A stretch of DNA of 64,000 bases from a virus (IMGVR_UViG_3300050510_000109:1-64000), one strand, 5' to 3'. Counted from the stretch's first letter, positions 9,172 through 23,407 are shown. Notes: generated by a model not told the origin, from the sequence alone. Made by a program: numbers and translations.

Positions 9172-10712
9172 AGCTCACCTAGCAACTTCTTAATTACTTG
9201 CCAGTCAAGTGCGATATCCAGATTTCGGCTTTCGTCCAGCGCATCTTCGGTGACCACATCGATAACGTGGACAGCGTTCTTTTGTCCGATACGATGTGCG
9301 CGGTCAATAGCCTGCTCGTTAAGGGCTTCTGCCCACTCACGATTGAGCAATATCACAGTTGATGAGGCAGTCAAAGTCAAACCCTGACCACCGGCCTTAA
9401 TACTTCCAGCAAATACCTTCAGCTTGCCCGCTTGGAAATCTCTAACCACTTGGTCACGTTCAGCTTTGGGAACCTTGCCAGTGTAAAGCCCACAGCTAAT
9501 TCCTAGTTTTTCGCATCGCTTGGCTAGTAGTTCGGCCATCTGGGCAAATTGACTGAACACGATTACTGGCTCGTCAGTCTCTTGAATCTTGGCAATTGCT
9601 TCGTCAATCTTACAGCTTGGCTCAGACAACTGCACGAATTCGAATGGGTGGCCAGTACACTTCACAATCTTCAGATCTTCACAGGGACTCTCAAAATCAG
9701 GAAGCTCATCATCCTCTTCGATCTCGTAAGCACTAAGCTCATATTCTCGATATAGAGGCAGACACACTTCACAGTTGTTGATGTGTTCCTGTGCGCACTC
9801 AGCGCAGTTTCTGCGCTTCTTTGTAGTCTTGATGATTTCAGCGTAAGCCGAGGCAAACTGCTGAAGCCTGGTGAGCTGAGCGAGGACCACTGGTGCATTG
9901 ATAGGGTCACTCTCGTGCTCACCTACCCAAGCCAGCATATCTTTCTTCATTTGCTGATAAGCCTTGGCCTGCTTGGGATGCATCTTGGATGTTATTGTGC
10001 TGAAGTACTTGTTCGGCAGATCCTTGACAACGTCTTCTTTCTTGACTCGACTGTAGAATCCACCGATAATGCTTTGCAGTTCTTCTTCGTTGTCCACACC
10101 AATTATGGTCCGGTACCCATCGTATTCAACCCACTTGATATACCGCTTGAAGTAGTTCCAATAGCTGGTCCAGTACTTCGGATACAGCCAATTGAGGATC
10201 GACCAAAGGTCATCTGGCTTGTTGAATACAGGTGTTCCGGAGAGTCCAGTTTTATAAAATGCCGATATTTTCTTGACTGCTTTTGTTTGGGAGGATTTTC
10301 TGTCTTGCAAGCTATGTACTTCATCACAAACAACATGAAACCATGGATACCTTGCAACGTCTGGCTCAAGTCTTACGGCTGCGTAATGCATAATGAACAC
10401 ATCGTAACCGACTTCTTGAGCCTTTTGGAATGAGGCATCCATGGCTTCCATAAACGGTCGCCTATTTTTGTTGTTAACAGCTATAACGTTCAGATGTGGC
10501 GCCCACGCTTTGAAGTGTTGAATCCACGACTCAATAACAGCTAAGGGACAGATAATCAGTGTCTTGGCTGGGTTATCAAAATTGGCTCTTCTTTTCTTAT
10601 CCAGTGCAATTGCGGTAACTGTCTTGCCTGTTCCCATGTCATGGGCAATAAGCGCACCACGTTTAGGTTCAAGCTTAGTTGCCGTCTGCTCTTGAAAGTC
10701 AAACAGTTCCAT
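9168..10712 (-). CDS. SNF2-family (SF2) helicase
   Basis: HDMGTGKT, CDEVH, GLSGTP, FSQF, GGQGLTLT, QAIDRAHRIGQ motifs. Confidence 0.9.
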   Translation of the reverse strand: MELFDFQEQTATKLEPKRGALIAHDMGTGKTVTAIALDKKRRANFDNPAKTLIICPLAVIESWIQHFKAWAPHLNVIAVNNKNRRPFMEAMDASFQKAQEVGYDVFIMHYAAVRLEPDVARYPWFHVVCDEVHSLQDRKSSQTKAVKKISAFYKTGLSGTPVFNKPDDLWSILNWLYPKYWTSYWNYFKRYIKWVEYDGYRTIIGVDNEEELQSIIGGFYSRVKKEDVVKDLPNKYFSTITSKMHPKQAKAYQQMKKDMLAWVGEHESDPINAPVVLAQLTRLQQFASAYAEIIKTTKKRRNCAECAQEHINNCEVCLPLYREYELSAYEIEEDDELPDFESPCEDLKIVKCTGHPFEFVQLSEPSCKIDEAIAKIQETDEPVIVFSQFAQMAELLAKRCEKLGISCGLYTGKVPKAERDQVVRDFQAGKLKVFAGSIKAGGQGLTLTASSTVILLNREWAEALNEQAIDRAHRIGQKNAVHVIDVVTEDALDESRNLDIALDWQVIKKLLGEL

Positions 10713-13174: not shown

Positions 13175-13810
13175 TTAATTTAGTAGTGCAGTATCGAGGA
13201 CTGTATAGGAACCACGAGAGATCCAAACATATCCGTCGTTATTGCTGTCGTCAATCTTGAACATGGTGCTCTTGTCCACGTCGGTGGCGAAGCCAGTCAC
13301 GTGGTTGCTAGCAAAAGCTAGAATTGGATTGTTGTTCTGATCGCAAATCTGAGCAACTCTAGCAGTACCGACGAACTTATCCTTCACGCTGCGCCAAAGG
13401 AAGTTAACCAATGGAACGCCACGATCGTTGTTCTTAATCCGAAGGTTGTAGAACTGCTGTGAATTTGCCATCAGGTTGTCCATGGCACCATCTGTGATGT
13501 AAACCGAAGTGAATCCTACGGTTGAGAAAAGGTTATCTCCACAGGAGACCTTAACCACAGATGAATCTTCGATCTTCTTGCCTTCGGCATCATGCCGATC
13601 ATATTCCGTGTCGCGGGCGAAGTCAAGACTTCTACAACGCGCCTGAAATACGACTTGTCCGTCAGCACCATAATTGTAGAAGGTGCCTGGCGTTGATCCC
13701 AACACCCGCATGATGTCGTCGATTTCCTTCTCGCAAGCACTGGCCATAGTTAGCGGCAAGGCCGAGACAAGAAATGCAGCAAACAAGAGTTTCTTAATGC
13801 CCGTTTTCAT
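13175..13810 (-). CDS. Secreted/lipoprotein-like protein
   Basis: Signal peptide MKTGIKKLLFAAFLVSALPLTMASAC; AGAGG SD. Confidence 0.6.
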   Translation of the reverse strand: MKTGIKKLLFAAFLVSALPLTMASACEKEIDDIMRVLGSTPGTFYNYGADGQVVFQARCRSLDFARDTEYDRHDAEGKKIEDSSVVKVSCGDNLFSTVGFTSVYITDGAMDNLMANSQQFYNLRIKNNDRGVPLVNFLWRSVKDKFVGTARVAQICDQNNNPILAFASNHVTGFATDVDKSTMFKIDDSNNDGYVWISRGSYTVLDTALLN

Positions 13811-13928: not shown

Positions 13929-14945
13929 TTATAGTGTCCAGAGGAACTTTGTGTCCTTCAGCAACTTGCGATTGACCGAAGTTGACTGGATGAAGATTGT
14001 GTAATCCGGATTGAAGTTTGCTTTGACTCGGACCTCCACATCCGGTGGCAAGCCAATCAAGTCGCGCGCCTCACGTCCAAGATAAATCTTACCAGTCTTG
14101 TCTTCCATCACAGCGACAAGCTTCTGTGGCTGGATGCTTACTGTGTTAGTGAGTTGGTAGTAGCCACGACCAAGAATGTAGGTCAAGCCGTGATCTTCCA
14201 CAAACTCGCGGATCTGACAATCGTCTTCCACATCAAACAGTCTGTATTGCTTCTTCAGCAGCGGCTTGACACCCATGGCAGTGACAGTTTTCTTGTTCAC
14301 TGCATCAGTGCCGGTGGAGAACAGTTGCCGTGTTCCACGAACGCCCTGTGACCTGCTGGTCATATAGGCATCAGTGGTCCGTCGGATCGTCTCGCCAACC
14401 TCAGTAATTCCAGATTCTGAATTGACATTCCAGACCATGATGTTACCTGGCCTGAAACCCCACTTCTTGGCTTCATGCATAGCTGGAATATCAGGAACGA
14501 AAACTCCTACTGTCCAGTGATCTGGCTGGTTGTTGAGCAAATTAGCCAACTCACTTGGCCGATGCCTGGACATGTTCTCTTGACCATCGGTGAAGATGTA
14601 GGTCAAGAATGAGTGATCTCCATAAATCTCAGGGGTCAATGCAAGATCCTGCTGAGATTTAATGGTTGCATCAATCAGTGCAGTCATGCCACTTGTGCGA
14701 TAAAACTGGGAAATCGACGGGAGTCGCAAAACATCCTTGTCGTATACGACGCACTTGACCGTGTCCGAAAAGACGTAGATTGTGACCCGCGTTTCTTGGT
14801 CTAGTTCTTGCGACCTTCGTGCTAGATGCTTGACTTGATCGTCAACTACCTTGATAACTTCACTAGCCCTATGACGCATCGAGTCGCTTTTGTCGATAAC
14901 AAATACAATGTGATTTACGTAATTAGGGATACTGTCATTCATCAT
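13929..14945 (-). CDS. von Willebrand factor A (vWA) domain protein
   Basis: MIDAS DKSDSM, MTALIDA, IFTDGQEN. Confidence 0.8.
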   Translation of the reverse strand: MMNDSIPNYVNHIVFVIDKSDSMRHRASEVIKVVDDQVKHLARRSQELDQETRVTIYVFSDTVKCVVYDKDVLRLPSISQFYRTSGMTALIDATIKSQQDLALTPEIYGDHSFLTYIFTDGQENMSRHRPSELANLLNNQPDHWTVGVFVPDIPAMHEAKKWGFRPGNIMVWNVNSESGITEVGETIRRTTDAYMTSRSQGVRGTRQLFSTGTDAVNKKTVTAMGVKPLLKKQYRLFDVEDDCQIREFVEDHGLTYILGRGYYQLTNTVSIQPQKLVAVMEDKTGKIYLGREARDLIGLPPDVEVRVKANFNPDYTIFIQSTSVNRKLLKDTKFLWTL

Positions 14946-16094: not shown

Positions 16095-17711
16095 TTAGAT
16101 CTTTCCCTTACTAAACTCAGCAATGAGCTTAGGCAGGTTTGCGTCAGCTCCAACAACATCCAACATGCCCGAGTCGTTCGGGTCGGCAATGGTGAAGTTG
16201 CTCGCAGTTACACCAACCACCACAAGACGAGATGGGATTCCCATTGCCTTGCGGTATTTCTGAAGGGCAACGTGCGGGTGGACCTGACCAGACCACGTTT
16301 CGTTATCGGTGATGACGACGAACGTGTCGATTTCTATGCCTCGACTGTGCGCCCAAGTCATTGGCAACGAGCAGTCTGTAGAACCAAAGTTCTGGTCCTG
16401 TACTTTGCTCATTACCGACATGAGATCCATGTTTGCATGGATTCCCAGATCCTTGAACGTGTGGGCAAAGCCCATGATGTGATGGTAAGGCTCAGTCTTG
16501 GCGATAGCCGTAGCCATAACACCAGAGACCTGAGCTGCCGTCAAATCAAGACCCATGCCAATTGCGCCGGACATGGAACCCGAAACGTCCAACGCCAGCA
16601 GAGTGCGCTTGTTGGTTGGCTCAATGTGCTTGAACGCCAAATGAACCCCGGCATCAAGTGCACTGAGAATTTGTGGTGAGGAGACCCAATCCTTGGCGTT
16701 TCTGGCCCAAGGATTGTTGCGGTCTCGCTGTCCTTCCGTGTGAACAACCAAAGCGTTGAGGTAATTGAGAGGGTGAAGGCGCGTGCGCGCAATCATCTCC
16801 TCGTTCGTCAAGGCATTGGCGTAATCCGTGGCGAACACCAGGGAGTCAAAGGCTTTGAGCCTTGCCAACCGGGTGATGTTTCGCACCAGAGCCTGACCCT
16901 TAAGCTGTCCCGTGTAGAAAAGCTTTTGCCAAACTTCTGGGTTCTTGTGGAACTTGGTCGGCAAAGCCTCCCAAGGCAGTTTGGTGCGCTCCAGGATTTG
17001 AAGAACATCATGGACATTATCGGACTTTTGAACTTCCTCAAATGCTTGGATGACTTCTGGAAGCTGACCAATGTCTCCGTCGTACTTACCAAGAATCCAC
17101 TTGGCCACGTCGTCATAAAGATCCGTGTAGAACTTCGGACGAGACTGACGTAGTGAATCTCGGTGAGTCCAACCTTCACGTTGGCGGTACTTCACTGCCT
17201 GATAAGCAATGTCCTCCGGCGTCTTGTCCTGGTACCAAGAGGCAATTGCCTTGTTGCGCGAGCTTCCCAAGCCTGATCCAGGAGCGAGCGCCTTTAGGAA
17301 GGACTCGAACTGGAAAAGGTGAGTTGCCGTACGAACAATGCGGTTCACTTGCGAACGCGCGTAAACCTTGGCTTCCTCGTTTCCTACAGTCATAACGAAA
17401 GCCAGAACGAAAATGGCTGCATCGTTACGGTAAGAACGACCTTCGTCTGAGATTTGTGCAGCCAAATCGACAACAGCCTTTGGCTGAGTTGCCGTCAAGC
17501 TACGTAGGTTGTCCAGATTTTGCTTGGTCAAGTCCTTCTGGCCGATGTAGTACGTCCCACCCTCGGAACCAAGGATAAGGAATCGTGCCAGCCGATCCAT
17601 GGAAGAGACCTGGAACGAAAAACCTCCGGCAGAGTTAGCGATTTGCAATTGGCTCTCTGGCTCATTCTGTGGAATGTCTCTCGTCGCATGCATTCGTAGG
17701 TAGTTGCTCAC
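16095..17711 (-). CDS. rsr: Ro60 / TROVE-domain RNA-binding protein (TROVE + vWA)
   Basis: NSAGGF, RLARFLILGSEGGTYY, KYRQREGWTHRD, LPWE, LHP, LALDVSGSM, TDCSLPM, VITDNETW, MLDVVG. Confidence 0.93.
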   Translation of the reverse strand: MSNYLRMHATRDIPQNEPESQLQIANSAGGFSFQVSSMDRLARFLILGSEGGTYYIGQKDLTKQNLDNLRSLTATQPKAVVDLAAQISDEGRSYRNDAAIFVLAFVMTVGNEEAKVYARSQVNRIVRTATHLFQFESFLKALAPGSGLGSSRNKAIASWYQDKTPEDIAYQAVKYRQREGWTHRDSLRQSRPKFYTDLYDDVAKWILGKYDGDIGQLPEVIQAFEEVQKSDNVHDVLQILERTKLPWEALPTKFHKNPEVWQKLFYTGQLKGQALVRNITRLARLKAFDSLVFATDYANALTNEEMIARTRLHPLNYLNALVVHTEGQRDRNNPWARNAKDWVSSPQILSALDAGVHLAFKHIEPTNKRTLLALDVSGSMSGAIGMGLDLTAAQVSGVMATAIAKTEPYHHIMGFAHTFKDLGIHANMDLMSVMSKVQDQNFGSTDCSLPMTWAHSRGIEIDTFVVITDNETWSGQVHPHVALQKYRKAMGIPSRLVVVGVTASNFTIADPNDSGMLDVVGADANLPKLIAEFSKGKI

Positions 17712-17722
17712 TTTTTCCTCTT

Positions 17723-17743
17723 TCAGTCACTTTTCAGTAACAA
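17723..17743 (-). promoter_or_regulatory. Putative Ro-binding hairpin abutting the Ro60 SD sequence
   Basis: Minus strand UUGUUAC-UGAAAA-GUGACUGA reproduces the bulged helix of the Y-like RNAs, 2 nt 5' of the GAGG SD. Confidence 0.55.
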
Positions 17744-17748
17744 GGATG

Positions 17749-17833
17749 TGGTAGTTTGATTATAGCCACCAGATTCGGCAAACCCCCATGCCTTACTGGG
17801 CGCTGACGACTTACACTATCCGACAAACTACCA
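17749..17833 (-). ncRNA. Structured element upstream of the Ro60 leader
   Basis: 10-bp TGGTAGTTTG/CAAACTACCA closing stem; no ORF. Confidence 0.3.
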
Positions 17834-17843
17834 AAACGGGTCG

Positions 17844-17916
17844 CTGCCAGGGCAGGAATCGAACCTGCTGCTTCCATACCGTCCTGGACTGCGCAGTCAA
17901 GCAGGACATCCTGGCA
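17844..17916 (-). ncRNA. D-armless tRNA-like RNA A
   Basis: TGCCAGG/CCTGGCA acceptor, GCAGG-TTCGATT-CCTGC T arm, single central GTCCTG/CAGGAC stem. Confidence 0.55.
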
Positions 17917-17936
17917 ATGTTCTTTTAATTTTCGTG

Positions 17937-18020
17937 TGGGAAGAACAGGATTCGAACCTGCGCAAGGGCAACCACATTTCTGTGGATTCGGTACCATCTC
18001 CTCATTATGCCTATCTTCCC
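17937..18020 (-). ncRNA. Atypical tRNA-like RNA B
   Basis: GGGAAGA/TCTTCCC acceptor, GCAGG-TTCGAAT-CCTGT T arm; no canonical D or anticodon arm; CCACA-GAAA-TGTGG hairpin. Confidence 0.5.
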
Positions 18021-18126
18021 TTTGGGTGGGCTTTTTTACCGACTCCAACGGCTAGGTGCCCACTTGAACCTAGTGTTTCCCATTCTTTACTGGGCAAGAT
18101 AGGTGCGACCTATCCTAAACGCATTG

Positions 18127-18203
18127 AGGCTAGTAGGGACTCGAACCCAATTGTTCCTCCAGTATTGCATGACTCTCGCGAAAGTCAACTGGATAACCTA
18201 GCC
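18127..18203 (-). ncRNA. D-armless tRNA-like RNA C
   Basis: GGCTAG/CTAGCC acceptor, GGG-TTCGAGT-CCC T arm, central TCCAGT/ACTGGA plus TGACTTT/AGAGTCA stems. Confidence 0.5.
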
Positions 18204-18330
18204 ATGGTGAGGAATCCTTATTCCCTCATAGGGCACCATGGTTGCACATGGGCCTCGGGAAATGGCCGATCAAACCATCTATATAGCAGATAGGCGCCTA
18301 GCTGCAATTTATATATTTCTGGATTCCCCG

Positions 18331-18403
18331 TGCGCTATGTAGGACTCGAACCCACAACTTCTGCTTGGAAGGCAGACGTGTTACCATTAAACACTAATAA
18401 CGC
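18331..18403 (-). tRNA. tRNA-Gly (UCC)
   Basis: GCGTTAT/ATAGCGC acceptor, TCTGC-CTTCCAA-GCAGA anticodon arm. Confidence 0.9.
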
Positions 18404-18406
18404 TAA

Positions 18407-18479
18407 GTGAGGATGAAGGATTCGAACCTCCTCGCCGGGCCTAATCGGCTTTAACCGTGATGCCTAGGACATCTCCTCA
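18407..18479 (-). ncRNA. D-armless tRNA-like RNA D
   Basis: TGAGGA/TCCTCA acceptor, GGAGG-TTCGAAT-CCTTC T arm, central CCTA/TAGG stem. Confidence 0.45.
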
Positions 18480-18512
18480 ACCCTTACCATCCCAACCTGC
18501 CAGCCAGGAAGT

Positions 18513-19520
18513 TTACTGCATAATCAAGTTGCCGTCAGAGCCGATGATAAGTCGGCATTCCTTGGCAACCTTACAGGCTTCAATAATAGCCTTGGTATTT
18601 TCAATTGTCTTCTGAAGTGCGACCCAACCAGGCGAATTGTACAATGCCTGAAGCTGTCGAGCCGACTCAGCTTCGCCTCTTGCCTTTTCGATCAGGGCAT
18701 TGGCAATACCTTGAGCTTCAGCAAGTTTCGCTGCGGCAAGTTCGAGCTGCTTTTGCTTCTCATTACGCGCCGCACGAATGCCGGGGTCGGCATAGTCAAC
18801 GTCGATAATCAAAAGCTCAAGCGGTGGACAATCTTCCTTTGTTCGGTCGAAGGACGGACCACAGAAGAAGTTACCTCCCGCAGTACGATTAAACTCGACC
18901 GCAAGTTGCTCGCCAATCTTCTTTTGTAGAGTTGCTTGAACGCCATCAGCGTTTGCCACGAGGGCATCTGCCGATGTATCTGAACCGCGAACCACATCAC
19001 GAACAATCGTGCGTAGCGTTGGGGCCAGAATTGCCTCAAGCATGTCCTTCCACCAAGTTTGGGGATTGGCAACGTAATAACGTCGTCCAATCTTTTCCCA
19101 AAAGACCTTGGCTACTCCGCCCTTGTCATCACAGAATGTGTTGAGCTGGAATGCAGTCTTGGTGGCAACCTTGACTTGAATTCCGGACGGCTGGTCCTTT
19201 TCTGGCTTTGCCGAAATGACCGTGACATCGGCCGAATCGGCACCTGGAGTGATGATGAATTTGCCAGGATTTGCTGGGTCTGGCATGTCATCAATCGTCC
19301 AAGTCCGCATGTTCGCGGGCAAGTAATAAACTTGATTGTTCCATTCAGGAGAACCAGTTTCGCCCGGCTTAATGCACTCGCCGAAATGGTCTCCATCGCT
19401 AGGTCCCTGCATGTAGTAAAGACCAACCTCATCAGGGGCTGAAGTCGTACTGCACGCTCCCAGCATTAGCATTACGCCTGCTCCCGCAGTAATCGCGGTT
19501 GCACGGAGGAACTTGTTCAC
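18513..19520 (-). CDS. SPFH / band-7 family lipoprotein
   Basis: Lipobox LGAC, SPFH-like core, C-terminal coiled coil (AEAQGIANALIEKARGEAE). Confidence 0.7.
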   Translation of the reverse strand: MNKFLRATAITAGAGVMLMLGACSTTSAPDEVGLYYMQGPSDGDHFGECIKPGETGSPEWNNQVYYLPANMRTWTIDDMPDPANPGKFIITPGADSADVTVISAKPEKDQPSGIQVKVATKTAFQLNTFCDDKGGVAKVFWEKIGRRYYVANPQTWWKDMLEAILAPTLRTIVRDVVRGSDTSADALVANADGVQATLQKKIGEQLAVEFNRTAGGNFFCGPSFDRTKEDCPPLELLIIDVDYADPGIRAARNEKQKQLELAAAKLAEAQGIANALIEKARGEAESARQLQALYNSPGWVALQKTIENTKAIIEACKVAKECRLIIGSDGNLIMQ

Positions 19521-19666
19521 CTGTAGTCTCCGATTTGTTTTCTTTTCTCGGCTCTGTAATGGTTAATTCGCGCGATCCGCTTACGTGCTCCATTAATCAG
19601 GATCACAGCTACCCATGTACATAGCCCAAGTCCAACAAATCCTGTGGCCACGTAAAGTGCCTTCAT
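19517..19666 (-). CDS. 49-aa membrane protein coupled to the SPFH gene (not in the ORF track)
   Basis: GGAAGG SD, MKALYVATGFVGLGLCTWVAVILING...; 4-bp overlap. Confidence 0.55.
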   Translation of the reverse strand: MKALYVATGFVGLGLCTWVAVILINGARKRIARINHYRAEKRKQIGDYR

Positions 19667-19685
19667 TTTTCCTTCCTTATAGAAG

Positions 19686-19826
19686 GATGCCGAACAAGTT
19701 GGCTACTATCGAAAGTTTTTGTGCTATCCGTTACACCACTGGCCCATGAGCGGGCCAGCCAGGAGTCGAACCTGGACCTTCTAATTAGCAGTTAGATGAT
19801 AATCGATAATAATTCAGTCCGACATC
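19686..19826 (-). ncRNA. yrlA: Y RNA 1, YrlA type
   Basis: GAUGUCG-GACUGA...CUUGUU-CGGCAUC stem; internal T arm CCAGGTTCGACTCCTGG, closed acceptor CTGGCCC/GGGCCAG, D arm. Confidence 0.85.
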
Positions 19827-19827
19827 G

Positions 19828-19904
19828 TGGGATTAGCAGGATTCGAACCTGCACTATGGACTTGGCATGTCCACGCCAGCGTCTACCAATTGCGCCACAA
19901 TCCC
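19828..19904 (-). tRNA. Atypical tRNA (possibly Gly-GCC; anticodon arm ambiguous)
   Basis: GGGATTG/TAATCCC acceptor, Leu-like D arm, canonical T arm; TGGAC-ATGCCAA-GTCCA competes with TGGCG/TGCCA. Confidence 0.5.
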
Positions 19905-19918
19905 ATTTGTATTGCACG

Positions 19919-20018
19919 TAGGAACGACAAGAATCGAACTTGTACCTTCTGGCTTAAGGGGCCAGTGCTCTAAATCCTCGGTTTCGGATATCACTCCACC
20001 TTGTTAAGCTACGTTCCC
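19919..20018 (-). tRNA. tRNA-Lys (CUU) with a 35-nt expanded D-loop
   Basis: GGGAACG/CGTTCCT acceptor, CTGGC-CCCTTAA-GCCAG anticodon arm, ACAAG-TTCGATT-CTTGT T arm. Confidence 0.7.
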
Positions 20019-20155
20019 ATGTTTTTGTGTACCGTATTGGGCCACGTACGGTACCAGACGTGGATACCATCCCCCGGAAGGGGCATCGCCCGTTTTGGTT
20101 TCCCTCATAGAAATCCGCCCAACGGCGAAGCAAGACAAACCCCAAGAGAGAACCG

Positions 20156-20228
20156 CTGGCCCAACAGGACTCGAACCTGTAACCCGTTGATTAACAATCA
20201 ACTGCGCTGCCAATTGCGCCATGAGCCA
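20156..20228 (-). tRNA. tRNA-Asn (GUU)
   Basis: TGGCTCA/TGGGCCA acceptor, GTTGA-TTGTTAA-TCAAC anticodon arm. Confidence 0.9.
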
Positions 20229-20234
20229 TTAATA

Positions 20235-20284
20235 GGGGATCAGCGTTCCCTTTTACGTTGTGGCTAGCCGTTACGCTGATCCCC
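20235..20284. other. 12-bp inverted repeat (terminator or RNA-processing stem)
   Basis: GGGGATCAGCGT/ACGCTGATCCCC. Confidence 0.45.
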
Positions 20285-20307
20285 GATCCTTCCGCGACCG
20301 CAGAAGT

Positions 20308-20694
20308 TTAACCTACGGTATAAGAACCATAGAAATCTATAAACCTTAGACCTTCATGATTCTCACAATCAGCCAGGTCATCTTCAGCCCAGTGATCGTA
20401 AAAGTCATTTTCTTGCCAGTAGTAAAGGTCTGTTTTCCATTGCTTGATTAAGCTCTGACGCTCGTGGCGCCAGTTCATTCTTTCACGACCATCTTCAAAG
20501 TAGAAAGCATATTTCTGACTACAGCACCAGCATTTGTGCTTAGCAAATAATGGCTTCCAAGTCCATTCGTAGAGTTCGTAAAGTCCAGTTTTCATATCGA
20601 ACGCTCTGCGAATGTGTCCAACCATGCGAAACCTACGGTTCAATGGGTCTTTCTCTTGAACCCACCATGGTCGCGTTTTGTCTGTATGAGACAT
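20308..20694 (-). CDS. Hypothetical protein (MSHTDKTRPWW...)
   Basis: AGGAGG SD; sole ORF between tRNA/ncRNA genes. Confidence 0.6.
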   Translation of the reverse strand: MSHTDKTRPWWVQEKDPLNRRFRMVGHIRRAFDMKTGLYELYEWTWKPLFAKHKCWCCSQKYAFYFEDGRERMNWRHERQSLIKQWKTDLYYWQENDFYDHWAEDDLADCENHEGLRFIDFYGSYTVG

Positions 20695-20851
20695 GATAAC
20701 CTCCTGTGCCGGTTAGGTACCGGCTAGACTAGGTTTCTCATGTCTTTCTCCTTTCTACTTTAAGTTTGGCGGGCAGGACTACGACCTACTAAAGCAATTT
20801 ATCCGGAACATCCTAGGTTCGGTCTCGGGTGCTACCCAACCTGCCTCGCTG

Positions 20852-20923
20852 TACCCCCACTAGGATTCGAACCTAGAACCTGATAGTTAAGAGCTACCAG
20901 CTCTACCCTTGAGCTATGGAGGC
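20852..20923 (-). tRNA. tRNA-Lys (CUU)
   Basis: GCCTCCA/TGGGGGT acceptor, GGTAG-CTCTTAA-CTATC anticodon arm. Confidence 0.9.
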
Positions 20924-21173
20924 TTGACCCTAGTATGTAGTATTTTGAAGCTGACGAGTAACTACATACTAGGGGGATCGTACTGTACCACAGACTTCTG
21001 ACTTAGCATTGGAGAGGGTTACTTTATCTAGAATTTTTCGCCCCCCACGCTTTCTCCCGCACTCCGTTAACACTCGACGTTGGAGAGTATAGGGTTGAGC
21101 GTTAGTTATACTTTGGTCATTCCGTCCATCCTGGTCGAGACAATTCACGTCTATGACAAAGTAAAAACTACCG

Positions 21174-21247
21174 TCTGGATAGCAGGATTCGAACCTGCAA
21201 TCGCTAGCTCCCAAAGCTAGTGCCCTACCAAGTTAGGCCATATCCAG
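21174..21247 (-). tRNA. tRNA-Pro (UGG)
   Basis: CTGGATA/TATCCAG acceptor, CTAGC-TTTGGGA-GCTAG anticodon arm. Confidence 0.9.
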
Positions 21248-21251
21248 ATTA

Positions 21252-21334
21252 GATGCTGAACAAGTATTTGCATCGGAGGGATATCTTCATTCATTACAAG
21301 TGAATTGATAACCGATACAATTCAGTCCAGCATC
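21252..21334 (-). ncRNA. Y-like RNA 2 (no tRNA module)
   Basis: GAUGCUG-GACUGAA-UUGUAUCGGUUAUC...CCGAUGCAA-AUA-CUUGUU-CAGCAUC. Confidence 0.8.
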
Positions 21335-21337
21335 GGG

Positions 21338-21405
21338 GTACCTAACAAGTCGCAAATATCGGGTTATTTTGGCTGGAGGATAACCGATATTCTTCAGTCA
21401 GGCAC
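21338..21405 (-). ncRNA. Y-like RNA 3 (minimal, 68 nt)
   Basis: GUGCCU-GACUGAA-GAAUAUCGGUUAUC...CCGAUAUU...CUUGUU-AGGUAC. Confidence 0.8.
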
Positions 21406-21408
21406 TCG

Positions 21409-21480
21409 CCCGAACGACAGGAGTCGAACCTGCATCTTCCGGTTTTGGAGACCGGCGCTTTTCCATTAAGCTACGTTCGA
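21409..21480 (-). tRNA. tRNA-Trp (CCA)
   Basis: TCGAACG/CGTTCGG acceptor, CCGGT-CTCCAAA-ACCGG anticodon arm. Confidence 0.9.
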
Positions 21481-21483
21481 AGG

Positions 21484-21560
21484 CTCCGCAACCTCACATT
21501 TGTGGAAACAACAAACCAGGCGGAGGTAAAGTGACCTTTGGCGCTTGTGAGGTTGCGGAG
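21484..21560 (-). ncRNA. Long-stem structured RNA
   Basis: Perfect 15-bp CTCCGCAACCTCACA/TGTGAGGTTGCGGAG stem enclosing 47 nt, between tRNA-Trp and Y-like RNA 4. Confidence 0.45.
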
Positions 21561-21567
21561 GTTAAAC

Positions 21568-21675
21568 AGCCAAACAAGTTACGACAATTGCTAGATTAAA
21601 CATTAGCTGCGAGCCATGCTTCATCCACTAGTAATTAAACTTTTGCAGTGATAAGCGATCGTCTTCAGTCTGACT
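21568..21675 (-). ncRNA. Y-like RNA 4
   Basis: AGUCA-GACUGAA-GACGAUCGCUUAUC...CUUGUU-UGGCU; overlaps the stop codon of the upstream ORF. Confidence 0.7.
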
Positions 21676-22075
21676 TGCGCTTTGGTCTTTCTCGTTTAAT
21701 TCTGTCTTGCGGGTTGTTCATTGAATCAGTGATCAGTTTTTCTATGTGTTCTGGGAGCCTATCGGGTGGTCCTTGTGTGCGTTCAAGCTCAATTCGTCTT
21801 GCCTCTTCGGTTATTACCTTCATAGCACAAATCTTAGCCTTGTCCAAGGACATCATGCGCAGTGTATATTCTAGTGTCGTCTTGCATATCACTATCGCTT
21901 CCATTGCGCCTGCTGCTGGTCTGTACCAGACTAACTCAGTGCCTACTTCAGAGCTAAAAGCTGAACTTGCTTGAGTATCCATAAGCAGTCGTTGCTGTTG
22001 ATCTGCACTTCGCAATTCAACATCGATCGTTATTGATACAAACCAATTTTTTCTTATATCGTCCCACTTTGTCAA
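21665..22075 (-). CDS. Hypothetical protein embedded in the Y RNA array
   Basis: TTG start after AAGGAG SD; the longer ORF-track version runs through Y RNA 5. Confidence 0.55.
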   Translation of the reverse strand: MTKWDDIRKNWFVSITIDVELRSADQQQRLLMDTQASSAFSSEVGTELVWYRPAAGAMEAIVICKTTLEYTLRMMSLDKAKICAMKVITEEARRIELERTQGPPDRLPEHIEKLITDSMNNPQDRIKRERPKRKSD

Positions 22076-22092
22076 TCTTGCTCTCCTTTTGA

Positions 22093-22231
22093 TACTGCCG
22101 AACAAGTGTAAGCAATCGGTATTTTTGGCGCTCTCCCACTGAGCTACATCCCGAAAATCAGGATGACAGGACTCGAACCTGCGACCTCCCACTCCGAATG
22201 TGATAACCAATTAGCATTCAGTCCGGCAGTA
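22093..22231 (-). ncRNA. yrlA: Y RNA 5, YrlA type
   Basis: UACUGCCG-GACUGAA...GGUUAUC; T arm GCAGGTTCGAGTCCTGT, closed acceptor CATCCTG/CGGGATG, D arm TAGCTCAGTGGGAGAGC; CUUGUU-CGGCAGUA. Confidence 0.85.
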
Positions 22232-22238
22232 CGTATGG

Positions 22239-22316
22239 GTATTGAACAAGTGGCTAGATTCGGCCTGTGGTCGGCATCAAATAGTTGTCGATAACCAAAT
22301 CTATTCAGTCCAATAC
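22239..22316 (-). ncRNA. Y-like RNA 6
   Basis: GUAUUG-GACUGAA-UAGAUUUGGUUAUC...CCGAAUCUA...CUUGUU-CAAUAC. Confidence 0.8.
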
Positions 22317-22328
22317 TTGGAGCTTTTA

Positions 22329-22438
22329 GTGTTGAACAAGCTATCGTAATCGTCCATTGCCCTACCATTAGGCGATATCCGGCGTGCGGATAAAAAGATT
22401 CGAACTTTTAAGATAAACAATTACTATCAGTCCAACAC
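22329..22438 (-). ncRNA. yrlA: Y RNA 7, YrlA type
   Basis: GUGUUG-GACUGA...UUUAUC; T arm AAAAGTTCGAATCTTTT, closed acceptor TATCCG/CGGATA, D arm TCGCCTAATGGTAGGGC; CUUGUU-CAACAC. Confidence 0.8.
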
Positions 22439-22447
22439 CAAGTTGGG

Positions 22448-22549
22448 TGTACCTAACAAGGTGGAGAATTCGGTCTTACTTAATAGACGCTCAATATATC
22501 GAGCTTCCTTCTATCCATCCTGATAACCAAATTCAATCAGTCAGGCACA
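22448..22549 (-). ncRNA. Y-like RNA 8
   Basis: UGUGCCU-GACUGAU-UGAAUUUGGUUAUC...ACCGAAUUC...CUUGUU-AGGUACA. Confidence 0.8.
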
Positions 22550-22557
22550 ACGTTTGG

Positions 22558-22679
22558 ATGTCTAACAAGTTATTAAGATTTCGGGTGGCCTACCTCGTGG
22601 TGGTTAGCTTCGAGGCTAGATTTCGCATGTCTAACGGCCGAGTCTGGTGCGGTAACCGAATTCTAATTCAGTCAGACAT
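22558..22679 (-). ncRNA. Y-like RNA 9
   Basis: AUGUCU-GACUGAA-UUAGAAUUCGGUUACC...CCGAAAUCU...CUUGUU-AGACAU. Confidence 0.75.
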
Positions 22680-22684
22680 TACCA

Positions 22685-22759
22685 GGTGATTGTTGGGGGT
22701 CGAACCCAAACCTCTAGATTCACAGTCTAGTGTGCACGAGCCGGTACACTACAACCACC
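22685..22759 (-). tRNA. tRNA-His (GUG)
   Basis: G-1:C73 pair, GTGGTTG/CAATCAC acceptor, CTAGA-CTGTGAA-TCTAG anticodon arm. Confidence 0.88.
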
Positions 22760-22762
22760 ATG

Positions 22763-22839
22763 AGTTGCAAACAAGTTGACAGGTATCGGTATAGTTCCAT
22801 ACCAATTATAGATAACCGAAACCAATTCAGTCTGCAACT
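22763..22839 (-). ncRNA. Y-like RNA 10
   Basis: AGUUGCA-GACUGAA-UUGGUUUCGGUUAUC...ACCGAUACC...CUUGUU-UGCAACU. Confidence 0.8.
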
Positions 22840-22977
22840 GAGAACCATTTAGCTTCCGCTGTTTAGTTCTCAAGATACATTATTCATTTGCTGCATGGGT
22901 AACCCTTTATGGCTAGGCCCTGGAGAACCACCACGTTCCCACCCATGTATATCAAAGGTAAGATTTCTACCTTCAAG

Positions 22978-23070
22978 AGGGGGTGAGAGGAATCGAACCT
23001 CTCTAGCATACCAAGTTGGGACCGAGATACCGTTTGCGCGCCGCGCGAATATCCTAGACCAACTACCCCC
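22978..23070 (-). ncRNA. D-armless tRNA-like RNA E
   Basis: GGGGGT/ACCCCC acceptor, AGAGG-TTCGATT-CCTCT T arm, central GTTGG/CCAAC stem. Confidence 0.5.
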
Positions 23071-23189
23071 AAAAAACGTCCTAGTAACTGGACGTTCCTA
23101 CGGTATTTCTCCGTGTCGTTTTGTGCTTGAGGTTTTGTACGGCATTCCCTACGTTTTTGTCCTCAAGCCGACCGAAATAACACTGTATT

Positions 23190-23327
23190 AAGCGTACATC
23201 CGGCTTCGAACCGAACACCCAATCGGACAGATAGGGGCTTTACGTGGTGAAGCTTTGTTTCGTGGTCCAGGTTGCCTGTCGCTCATGCTGGGACGTATTT
23301 AGGATCTCCCTAAATCACCATACGCTT
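23190..23327 (-). ncRNA. Enlarged tRNA-like RNA F (138 nt)
   Basis: AAGCGTAT/GTACGCTT acceptor-like stem, TTCGG-TTCGAAG-CCGGA T arm, ATTTAGG/CCTAAAT hairpin. Confidence 0.4.
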
Positions 23328-23336
23328 CACCACTAG

Positions 23337-23407
23337 TGGCAGGCGTCCGATTCGAACGGCGTCTCCGGGTTATGAGCCCGGTATGGGACCTCTCCACCAC
23401 GCCTGCG
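23337..23407 (-). tRNA. tRNA-Met (CAU), initiator-like anticodon stem
   Basis: CCGGG-CTCATAA-CCCGG with three G-C pairs; GCAGGCG/CGCCTGC acceptor; weak T stem. Confidence 0.7.

What the first reader, a model, noticed from the sequence alone, without database searches (positions are those of the whole stretch)
16095..22839. Phage Ro60 with an array of ten Y-RNA genes sharing a variant Ro-binding helix
Seen in sequence: ten minus-strand elements of 68-141 nt (19686, 21252, 21338, 21568, 22093, 22239, 22329, 22448, 22558, 22763). Each has a different but complementary 5-8-bp terminal stem, then invariant GACUGA paired with UUGUU leaving a bulged U, a ~9-bp second stem, the motif (G)GUUAUC and a variable apex. 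The outer stems differ in sequence yet keep pairing, which is evidence for RNA structure. Six of them and tRNA-His are packed 3-12 nt apart from 22093 to 22839. Established knowledge: Ro60 binds a bulged helix in Y RNAs (GGUCCGA/UUGACU with a bulged C), and human Y4 begins GGCUGGUCCGAUGGUAGUGGGUUAUC, placing GGUUAUC at the same spacing. Bacterial and phage Ro loci usually carry one or a few Y RNAs. Inference: this is a modular Ro60 RNP system in which one protein is loaded with about ten interchangeable Y RNAs, possibly for RNA quality control or counter-defence.
Basis: partly seen in the sequence, partly recalled or inferred. Interest (0 to 1): 0.95.

Follow-up and report, generated by a model that had tools for sequence, protein, structure and literature searches.

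The report
Phage Ro60 with ten Y RNAs
A 72-kb uncultured phage carries a gene for the RNA-surveillance ring protein Ro60 preceded by ten genuine partner "Y RNA" genes mixed in with tRNA genes; this is a known kind of system, but it is the largest such set I could find.

Summary
Exactly ten minus-strand elements (68-141 nt) lie 2.0-5.1 kb upstream of a full-length Ro60 gene with TROVE and vWA_Ro60 domains.

Each element has these features:
- a covarying terminal stem;
- invariant GACUGA paired with CUUGUU, leaving a bulged U;
- a covarying second stem;
- UUAUC (UUACC in one);
- a variable apex.

Three elements carry the circularly permuted tRNA-like domain of YrlA.

They are Y RNAs by homology. 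Rfam YrlA matches two of them below its threshold. A covariance model built only from other phages' Ro60-linked RNAs finds nine of the ten. The three tRNA-like ones have one-to-one orthologs, with compensatory changes, in a contig whose Ro60 is 65% identical.

Ro60 loci of Streptomyces, Mycobacterium and uncultured phages carry 3-7 unannotated Y RNAs, always on the Ro60 strand. This scan has already noted phage Ro60(-like) RNA arrays of 3-9 on other DNA.

I did not find the following in the papers I could search: ten copies, a two-stranded helix with a bulged U, seven non-tRNA apices, and a copy of the helix as a hairpin at the Ro60 ribosome-binding site. The hairpin is likely autoregulatory.

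Function remains inferred.

The parts
16095..17711 (-). Ro60 (Rsr) gene, 538 aa, GTG start
   Evidence: Pfam TROVE 3.7e-29 and vWA_Ro60 7.4e-61. It aligns over its full length to D. radiodurans Rsr 2nvo (E 4.9e-91) and Xenopus Ro60 1yvp (E 2.5e-89).
17722..17744 (-). Hairpin CUUGUUAC-UGAAAA-GUGACUGAA. It rebuilds the Y-RNA helix (U-A, U-G, bulged U, G-C, U-A, U-G) with the strands in reverse order. It ends 1 nt before the GAGG Shine-Dalgarno (17720-17717) of Ro60. Candidate autoregulatory mimic.
   Evidence: Sequence, fold. The pattern alone is at chance level in the window. Relatives, however, carry the same hairpin built from their own helix variant at the same place.
22763..22839 (-). Y RNA 1 (77 nt), short hairpin apex
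   Evidence: R3 34.4 bits, E 7.8e-7.
22558..22679 (-). Y RNA 2 (122 nt), UUACC variant, branched non-tRNA apex
   Evidence: R3 27.3 bits, E 5.5e-5.
22448..22549 (-). Y RNA 3 (102 nt), long hairpin apex
   Evidence: R3 30.3 bits.
22326..22441 (-). Y RNA 4 (116 nt), YrlA type: T arm, closed acceptor-like stem, D arm
   Evidence: Rfam YrlA aligns over model positions 1-114, 34.3 bits, E 5e-5. Ortholog at L055:276-391.
22239..22316 (-). Y RNA 5 (78 nt), small apex
   Evidence: R3 43.3 bits.
22092..22232 (-). Y RNA 6 (141 nt), YrlA type with a 7-bp closed acceptor stem
   Evidence: Rfam YrlA 34.0 bits; R3 93.7 bits, E 2e-22. Ortholog at L055:398-532.
21568..21675 (-). Y RNA 7 (108 nt), the most divergent (CGCUUAUC). 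Its 5' stem overlaps the stop codon of ORF 21665-~22075.
   Evidence: Not found by the relatives-only model R3.
21338..21405 (-). Y RNA 8 (68 nt), minimal apex, 2 nt after tRNA-Trp
   Evidence: R3 37.4 bits.
21252..21334 (-). Y RNA 9 (83 nt). The apex is an anticodon-arm-like 5-bp stem with a 7-nt loop CUUGUAA. It lies 4 nt before tRNA-Pro.
   Evidence: R3 50.3 bits.
19686..19826 (-). Y RNA 10 (141 nt), YrlA type: anticodon-arm-like stem-loop, AGGUC, T arm, 7-bp closed acceptor stem, D arm. It abuts the tRNA-like gene 19827-19904.
   Evidence: R3 83.3 bits; partial Rfam tRNA hit 19751-19821. Ortholog at L055:541-680.
18330..22759 (-). Interspersed tRNA genes on the same strand: His 22684-22759, Trp 21408-21480, Pro 21173-21247, Lys 20851-20923, Asn 20155-20228, odd tRNA 19827-19904, Gly 18330-18403. 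Several weaker tRNA-like elements are also present.
   Evidence: ARAGORN and Rfam tRNA.

Best explanation
This is a phage Ro60 ribonucleoprotein cassette. Ten Y RNA genes sit upstream of Ro60 on the same strand, packed 0-9 nt from tRNA genes or from each other.

Three are of YrlA type, with a circularly permuted tRNA-like domain. Seven have other apices.

Shown here:
- The elements are structured RNAs with covarying stems.
- They are homologous to the Ro60-linked Y RNAs of other phages and to Rfam YrlA.
- The three tRNA-like types are kept as separate orthologs in a related phage.

Inferred:
- They are transcribed with the tRNAs as long precursors.
- They are cut out by the host's tRNA-processing nucleases (RNase P, RNase Z, exonucleases). 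The two with 7-bp acceptor stems may themselves be nicked by RNase P, as M. smegmatis YrlA is.
- Ro60 binds the invariant GACUGA/CUUGUU helix with its bulged U. This protects the RNA ends, and the different apices tether or gate Ro60 towards different partners, such as host PNPase in a RYPER-like complex.
- Free Ro60 binds the copy of the same helix next to its own Shine-Dalgarno sequence. This represses its translation, so Ro60 is matched to the Y RNA pool.
For: - Ro60 identity.
- Ten elements and no others.
- Covariation among the ten: 92.8% paired against 26-42% when slid, 11 pairs changed on both sides.
- Independent homology: Rfam YrlA at E about 5e-5 for two elements, one of them aligned over the full model with a matching 3' CUUGU consensus. 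R3, built only from relatives, finds 9 of 10.
- Relatives: 174 hits and 105 hits, all on the Ro60 strand and mostly within 2 kb upstream of Ro60. Across 69 distinct relatives' RNAs, 87.3% of cells pair and 19 of 21 pairs covary. The C-G pair of the helix alternates with U-A.
- L055 (Ro60 65% identical) has the same GACUGA motif. It also has orthologs of Y4, Y6 and Y10 in the same order, with compensatory T-stem and acceptor-stem changes.
- The RBS hairpin tracks each phage's own helix variant: CUUGUU/GACUGA here, CAUGU/ACUGA in L055, AUGCCC/GGGCCGA in Streptomyces-type phages.
- Literature: Y RNAs lie near Ro60 on the same strand, with a GNCGAA motif and a conserved YUAY. M. smegmatis YrlA and YrlB come from one precursor, and YrlA is cut by RNase P (PMC4201824). 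The Ro60 of Thermus phage phiLo binds two Yrls and host PNPase in vitro (PMC12135203).
Against: - There are no expression or binding data. The phage is uncultured and its host is unknown.
- Rfam YrlA scores (34 bits) are below the gathering threshold of 69.
- Y RNA 7 is not found by the relatives-only model.
- R3's training set was itself gathered by models seeded from the window, so its independence is partial.
- Six of the ten lie more than 4 kb from Ro60, outside Chen 2014's conservative distance criterion.
- The promoter and terminator scan was uninformative.
- No RtcB is present, so the repair-operon context of Salmonella is absent.
- The non-tRNA apices have no detectable orthologs.
Confidence: 0.82

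Rival explanations
1. The elements act mainly without Ro60. They would be tRNA or RNA decoys that soak up host tRNA-cleaving or tRNA-modifying enzymes, or serve as spare tRNA parts. The shared stem would be a stability and processing handle rather than a protein-binding site.
For: Three carry near-complete tRNA-like domains, and two apices look like anticodon arms. They lie inside a tRNA gene cluster. Chen 2014 shows that YrlA is recognised by tRNA enzymes.
Against: The invariant part is the Ro-helix homolog, not the tRNA part. Seven have no tRNA domain. The same helix is copied at the Ro60 RBS, and it changes together with the Y RNAs between phages. Linkage to Ro60 on the same strand holds in about 100 loci.
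Confidence: 0.08
2. The elements are cis-acting punctuation: processing or stabiliser stem-loops of a polycistronic tRNA/mRNA transcript. They would have no life of their own as RNPs.
For: Gaps of 0-9 nt to tRNAs and to each other. One element overlaps the end of an ORF.
Against: Simple processing hairpins do not need a second covarying stem, UUAUC, tRNA-like domains or individually conserved apices. They are homologous to experimentally established Y RNAs.
Confidence: 0.05
3. The elements are DNA-level repeats (a miniature mobile element, recombination sites or iterons) whose palindromic ends only look like RNA stems.
For: Ten copies share invariant 6-nt blocks.
Against: All copies are on one strand. 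The outer stems differ in sequence but keep pairing, including through G-U pairs, which work only in RNA. There are no target-site duplications or shared termini. Orthologs in other phages show compensatory changes.
Confidence: 0.02

Closest known systems
YrlA / YrlB Y RNAs of Salmonella Typhimurium, Mycobacterium smegmatis and mycobacteriophages (Rfam RF02553; Chen et al. 2014, PMC4201824)
   Same: - Encoded upstream of Ro60 on the same strand.
- A terminal stem carries the Ro motif, followed by a second stem and a conserved YUAY (here UUAUC).
- In three copies, a T arm, a closed acceptor-like stem and a D arm.
- Shorter copies without the full tRNA domain also exist (as YrlB does).
- Likely processed from a common precursor.
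   Different: - Ten copies instead of one to a few.
- The motif is GACUGA with a bulged U and a C-G pair instead of GNCGAA.
[quoted passage not shown]
- The copies are interleaved with real tRNA genes.
- Rfam score is only 34 bits against a threshold of 69.
Thermus phage phiLo Ro60 with Yrl1 and Yrl2 (PMC12135203)
   Same: A phage-encoded Ro60 with Y-like RNAs just upstream. That Ro60 binds them in vitro and forms a complex with host PNPase, which is the mechanism I infer here.
   Different: phiLo Ro60 is only distantly related (E 6e-4). It has two RNAs with a CGAA bulge, not ten with GACUGA/CUUGUU, and no tRNA cluster is reported.
Vertebrate Y RNAs and nematode sbRNAs (PMC4726728)
   Same: - A two-stranded helix with a bulged pyrimidine flanked by C-G and G-U/A-U pairs (GUCCGA/UUGAC against GACUGA/UUGUU).
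- UUAUC lies 10 nt after the helix, as in human Y4 (string verified).
- A variable loop domain.
   Different: - The bulge is U, not C.
- There is no La-binding U tail.
- Three copies have tRNA-like domains.
- The 2015 review calls bacterial Y RNAs 'not homologous' with the vertebrate clades.
- The shared motifs are short, so common descent is suggestive but not shown.
Deinococcus radiodurans Yrn1/Yrn2 and the RYPER complex (Ro60-Y RNA-PNPase)
   Same: Both helix strands are retained, several ncRNAs lie near rsr, and the Y RNA acts as a tether and gate.
   Different: The order of the tRNA-like arms differs in Yrn1. PNPase tethering is not testable here.
Unannotated Y RNA arrays of Streptomyces BE-cluster phages (e.g. 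Karp), M. abscessus prophage prophiT37-1 and Bxz1-like phages
   Same: Same family, found by the same models, lying upstream of 'Ro-like RNA binding protein'. Karp has 5 (4 in the tRNA-rich stretch upstream of Ro60, 1 about 26 kb downstream of it), prophiT37-1 has 6 in an unannotated 1.4-kb gap, and Spud has 3.
   Different: They have fewer copies, and their helix variants are GGGUCGA/GGGCCGA with a bulged C. Their Ro60 is only 36-50% identical.

Membership tests
Y RNA (Ro60-associated ncRNA; YrlA/YrlB class) | Encoded near a Ro60 ortholog on the same strand (Chen 2014 used 4 kb or less). | tested here: met
   All ten are on the Ro60 strand, 1,975-5,128 nt upstream of its start. Four lie within 4 kb and six at 4.4-5.1 kb.
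Y RNA (Ro60-associated ncRNA; YrlA/YrlB class) | The 5' and 3' ends pair into a stem carrying the conserved Ro-binding motif (GNCGAAN0-1G in bacteria, GGUCCGA/UUGACU in animals). | tested here: met
   A variant form, invariant GACUGA/CUUGUU with a bulged U. cmscan aligns it to the gaAUG / UuGuc consensus of RF02553. The C-G pair alternates with U-A in relatives.
Y RNA (Ro60-associated ncRNA; YrlA/YrlB class) | Conserved YUAY after the second stem. | tested here: met
   UUAUC in 9 of 10 and UUACC in 1. UUAUC occurs in 49 of 69 relatives' RNAs.
YrlA (Rfam RF02553) | tRNA-like domain: T arm, closed acceptor-like stem, D arm. | tested here: met
   Present in 3 of 10 (19826, 22232, 22441). Absent in the other seven, which are therefore Y RNAs but not YrlA.
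YrlA (Rfam RF02553) | Score at or above the curated gathering threshold (69 bits). | tested here: not met
   Best scores are 34.3 and 34.0 bits, E about 5e-5. These are divergent members.
Y RNA (Ro60-associated ncRNA; YrlA/YrlB class) | Stable discrete transcript physically bound by Ro60. | not testable with these tools
   Needs Northern blot or small-RNA-seq and RIP or EMSA.
Ro60 / Rsr protein | TROVE HEAT-repeat ring plus a C-terminal vWA domain. | tested here: met
   PF05731 102.6 bits (cut-off 23) and PF25045 205.3 bits (cut-off 27.7). Full-length match to 2nvo and 1yvp.
Canonical tRNA | Cloverleaf with open acceptor ends, called by ARAGORN or Rfam tRNA. | tested here: not met
   None of the ten is called as a tRNA. 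There is only a partial 27.6-bit hit inside Y19826.

The most novel reading that the evidence does not exclude
The phage would run a many-adaptor Ro60 machine. One ring protein is held at a set level by a Y-helix mimic on its own mRNA. It is loaded with ten non-redundant Y RNAs whose apices each direct it to a different host enzyme or RNA. Three are tRNA mimics kept for a long time, and seven are fast-evolving modules. The purpose would be to take over host RNA decay or to blunt tRNA- and RNA-targeting defences. In addition, the shared bulged helix, the 8-nt stem and UUAUC would mean that phage/bacterial and animal Y RNAs descend from one ancestor.
Probability: 0.25. Interest if true: 0.8.

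Novelty: new variant of a known kind. Interest (0 to 1): 0.55.

Why it matters
Y RNAs are understood as a constant Ro60 handle plus a variable module that decides what the particle does. What the modules do is still largely unknown.

This phage offers a natural library: ten modules on one invariant handle, with one Ro60, in 6.7 kb. Relatives show which modules are conserved (three tRNA mimics) and which turn over.

It also gives a simple, testable case of Ro60 binding its own mRNA through a Y-RNA look-alike.

Y RNA arrays appear to be widespread and unannotated in well-studied actinophages (Streptomyces BE cluster, Bxz1-like phages, M. abscessus prophages). In places they are annotated as small hypothetical proteins.

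Finally, the helix and the UUAUC spacing tie the bacterial and phage RNAs more closely to animal Y RNAs than the reviews I read allow.

Tried and rejected
- Megablast of the 7-kb region against 50,697 phage records gave no match. The phage has no close sequenced relative.
- The strict GACTGA...TTGTT pattern found nothing in 49 related viral loci. It was too strict, and covariance models were needed.
- L002, the viral contig with the most similar Ro60 (56%), has tRNAs around Ro60 but no detectable Y RNA in its 3 kb of upstream sequence or its 73%-complete record. This is unexplained. The contig starts there.
- An earlier scan note pointed to a D-loop insertion in the tRNA-Lys-like gene at 19919-20018 that is antisense to Y RNAs. 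The 13-nt match to Y RNA 3 is real. However, two other 13-nt antisense matches to the Y set occur elsewhere on the minus strand (near 10007 and 63628), about what chance predicts, so I do not count it.
- The RBS hairpin pattern alone is not significant in the window: 1 found against 0.63 expected. Its weight comes from its position and from the relatives.
- The promoter and terminator scan found nothing above shuffled expectation.
- RtcB is absent from the genome. Neighbouring ORFs gave no RNA-repair domains.
- The non-tRNA apices gave no significant similarity to those of L055.
- The two reviews on bacterial Y RNAs (PMC10870794, PMC6047535) and the supplement of Chen 2014 were not available. 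I therefore could not check the largest number of Y RNAs per phage already published.


Full report
**What is there**

The window belongs to a 72,451-bp IMG/VR virus record that CheckV rates complete.

ORF 16095-17711 on the minus strand encodes a 538-aa protein. It has a TROVE domain (102.6 bits) and the Ro60-type vWA domain (205.3 bits). It aligns end to end with D. radiodurans Rsr (2nvo, E 4.9e-91) and with Xenopus and human Ro60. The closest named relatives are the 'Ro-like RNA binding proteins' of Streptomyces BE-cluster phages, at 46-50% identity. Mycobacterium and Gordonia phages follow at about 36%.

The portal protein is only 26-29% identical to actinophage portals, and megablast finds no similar phage. 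This is therefore a new phage whose host is unknown.

**The ten elements**

A strict scan for GACTGA ... TTGTT with at least four flanking complementary bases gives ten sites. All are on the minus strand between 19686 and 22839. There are none on the plus strand and none elsewhere.

MFE folds give the same plan for all ten:
- a 5-9-bp terminal stem;
- GAC paired with GUU, where the full helix G-U, A-U, C-G, bulged U, G-U, A-U can also form;
- an internal loop;
- a second stem of 8-10 bp;
- UUAUC (UUACC in one);
- an apex of 14-85 nt.

GACTGA and CTTGTT are invariant columns.

A covariance model of the ten (R1), run with filters off, finds only these ten in the window (next best 13 bits). It finds none in the rest of the genome.

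On the model-guided alignment, 92.8% of cells pair, against 26-42% when the 3' partners are slid by 1-3 columns. Eleven of 21 pairs change on both sides. The alignment is fitted to the structure, but the slide control and the G-U pairs make an RNA-level constraint the only reasonable reading.

**They are Y RNAs**

- Three elements (19826, 22232, 22441) contain a T arm, then a stem closed by a loop, then a D arm. This is the circularly permuted tRNA-like domain that defines YrlA (PMC4201824).
- Rfam YrlA (RF02553) aligns to 22327-22437 over the full model. The match includes the 5' ...CgaAUG... and 3' ...AcUuGucG... consensus. It also aligns to 22109-22201. Both score 34 bits at E about 5e-5, below the family's threshold of 69.
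- UUAUC is the 'conserved YUAY' that Chen et al. place at the start of the V loop.
- The Ro60 protein retrieved 49 viral and 80 metagenomic loci. A broader model (R2) gave 174 and 105 hits in them. Every hit is on the Ro60 strand, and nearly all lie within 2 kb upstream of Ro60.
- On 69 distinct RNAs from relatives, with the window excluded, 87.3% of cells pair (30-46% when slid). Nineteen of 21 pairs covary. That includes the C-G pair of the Ro helix, which alternates with U-A.
- A model built only from those relatives (R3) finds nine of the window's ten elements at E 2e-22 to 5.5e-5. It misses only Y RNA 7, the most divergent. The relatives were themselves collected with models seeded from the window, so this independence is partial.

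**The helix variant**

Relatives use GGGUCGA, GGGCCGA or GGGCUGA on the 5' side and UUAUCC or UUGCCC on the 3' side. The general form is N-C-(Y bulge)-G-A paired with U-U-G-N'.

The window's GACUGA/UUGUU has the same geometry as the vertebrate GUCCGA/UUGAC helix: an N-N' pair, C-G, a bulged pyrimidine, G-U, A-U. The bulge is U instead of C.

Chen et al. note that only the 5' strand is recognisable in Salmonella and M. smegmatis, while both strands are kept in Deinococcus and animals. In this phage both strands are invariant.

The bulged U is not unique. L015 has GCUGA/UUGC. L055, whose Ro60 is 65% identical, has GACUGA/AUGUU in four of its five Y RNAs.

UUAUC lies 10 nt after the helix in Y4, 10-11 nt after it in six of the ten window elements, and mostly 10-11 nt after it in relatives.

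UUAUC is also a conserved, functionally required motif of nematode sbRNAs and vertebrate Y RNAs (PMC4726728). That review calls bacterial Y RNAs 'not homologous' to the vertebrate clades. The shared helix, stem length and UUAUC argue for a closer link, but the motifs are short and I did not test this formally.

**How unusual is ten?**

Counts with R2:
- an M. abscessus-type provirus: 7 in tandem;
- prophiT37-1: 6, in an unannotated 1.4-kb gap in front of Ro60;
- Streptomyces phage Karp: 5, of which 4 lie among the tRNA genes upstream of Ro60 and 1 about 26 kb downstream of it;
- several soil contigs: 5-6;
- Bxz1-like phage Spud: 3, overlapping 'gp225'.

These counts are lower bounds. None of these RNAs is annotated in the records I looked at.

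In the papers I could search, phage Y RNAs are reported as present (22 phages in Chen 2014; two Yrls in phiLo). I found no description of large arrays. I could not read two key reviews or Chen's supplement.

Earlier notes of this scan describe phage Ro60 or Ro60-like genes with arrays of 3-9 small RNAs in many other genomes. The scan has therefore met this phenomenon before on other DNA.

**The paralogs are old and distinct**

In L055 the first three Y RNAs are one-to-one orthologs of Y4 (22441), Y6 (22232) and Y10 (19826), in the same order. Apex alignment scores are 64, 66 and 94, against a shuffled maximum of 27. There are compensatory changes in the T stems (CCAGG/CCUGG against CUAGG/CCUAG) and in the acceptor-like stems.

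The short, non-tRNA apices have no detectable counterparts. The picture is a conserved core of three tRNA mimics plus lineage-specific short Y RNAs. That argues against the copies being simply interchangeable.

Y6 and Y10 have 7-bp acceptor-like stems. [quoted passage not shown]

**Expression (inferred)**

All genes from about 24 kb down to Ro60 are on the minus strand. Gaps are 3-9 nt in the block Y1-tRNAHis-Y2-Y3-Y4-Y5-Y6, 2-4 nt in tRNATrp-Y8-Y9-tRNAPro, and 0-1 nt between a tRNA-like gene and Y10.

There is no room for separate promoters, and the consensus scan is uninformative. Co-transcription with the tRNAs, followed by release by tRNA-processing nucleases, is the simplest reading. It fits the single precursor shown for M. 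smegmatis YrlA and YrlB.

**A helix copy at the Ro60 ribosome-binding site**

An earlier scan note pointed to 17712-17744. I confirmed that the minus strand reads CUUGUUAC-UGAAAA-GUGACUGAA. This rebuilds the same six-position helix with its bulged U as a hairpin. The hairpin ends 1 nt before the GAGG Shine-Dalgarno, and the GTG start is at 17711.

The bare pattern is not significant in the window. The same arrangement, however, recurs in relatives with each phage's own helix variant:
- AUGCCC-loop-GGGCCGAA-AGGA in Streptomyces-type phages (16 of 78 distinct loci by a strict regex);
- AUGCUCGU...ACGAGCCGAA in L013;
- CAUGUCCC...GGGAACUGA in L055, whose Y RNAs also have AUGU rather than UUGU.

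This co-variation is the best in-silico evidence that the helix is a protein-binding site. It also suggests that Ro60 represses its own translation by molecular mimicry, as many ribosomal proteins do.

**Function**

The established roles of Y RNAs are to gate the Ro60 cavity and to tether Ro60 to PNPase (RYPER). The Ro60 of phage phiLo forms such a complex with host PNPase in vitro.

Nothing here tests function. The genome lacks RtcB, and the neighbouring ORFs give no RNA-repair domains.

I consider a multi-adaptor Ro60 RNP the most likely function. A Ro60-independent decoy role for the tRNA mimics is a minor rival.

**Verdict**

This is a known kind of system (Ro60 with Y RNAs in a phage) in an unusually expanded and tidy form. 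The added points of interest are the vertebrate-like helix, the conserved trio of tRNA mimics, and the RBS mimic.

Noticed in passing
window 17722-17744 (-); also L003-L014, L048, L055, L058, L063, L112 just upstream of Ro60: A hairpin that copies the Ro-binding helix of the Y RNAs sits directly against the Ro60 Shine-Dalgarno. Relatives have the same hairpin built from their own helix variant. This is a likely case of translational autoregulation of Ro60 by Y-RNA mimicry. I did not find it in the papers searched.
   Followed up: partly
L052 (Streptomyces phage Karp), L053 (Mycobacterium phage prophiT37-1), L054 (Mycobacterium phage Spud): Named, published actinophages carry 3-6 unannotated Y RNAs upstream of 'Ro-like RNA binding protein'. 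In Spud they overlap the annotated CDS gp225. In prophiT37-1 they fill a 1.4-kb gap that has no features.
   Followed up: partly
window 19919-20018 (-): A tRNA-Lys(CUU)-like gene has a roughly 35-nt insertion in its D loop. The insertion contains a 13-nt exact complement of Y RNA 3 (CUCCACCUUGUUA). Two other 13-nt antisense matches to the Y set occur elsewhere on this strand, so the complementarity is at chance level. The enlarged D loop itself remains unexplained.
   Followed up: partly
window 17744-18520, 19827-19904, 22840-23340 (-): Several further tRNA-like pieces lie here: T arms with GGUUCGA, a tRNA with an uncallable anticodon at 19827-19904, a borderline tRNA at 17937-18020, and a weak tRNA-Sec-like hit at 18407-18496. 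The cassette holds more tRNA-derived RNAs than the 13 that ARAGORN calls.
   Followed up: no
window 19780-19800 and 21290-21310 (-); L055:560-580: Directly after UUAUC, Y10 and Y9 carry a 5-bp stem with a 7-nt loop of the form CU-NNN-AA (CUGCUAA, CUUGUAA), like an anticodon arm. In Y10 and its ortholog it is followed by AGGUC or AGGAC and the T arm. In tRNA numbering this stem-loop is the anticodon arm rather than a variable arm, and the Ro stem is inserted at position 26/27.
   Followed up: partly
L002 / L056 / L057 (Ro60 56% identical): Ro60 is flanked by ten tRNA genes and has an RBS hairpin with GAGUCGA. No Y RNA is detectable in the 3 kb upstream, and the contigs all begin there.
   Followed up: partly
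window 13929-14945 and 13175-13810 (-): A second, separate vWA-domain protein and a DUF5052 protein lie 1-3 kb downstream of Ro60 among further tRNA genes. Any relation to the Ro60 system is unknown.
   Followed up: no
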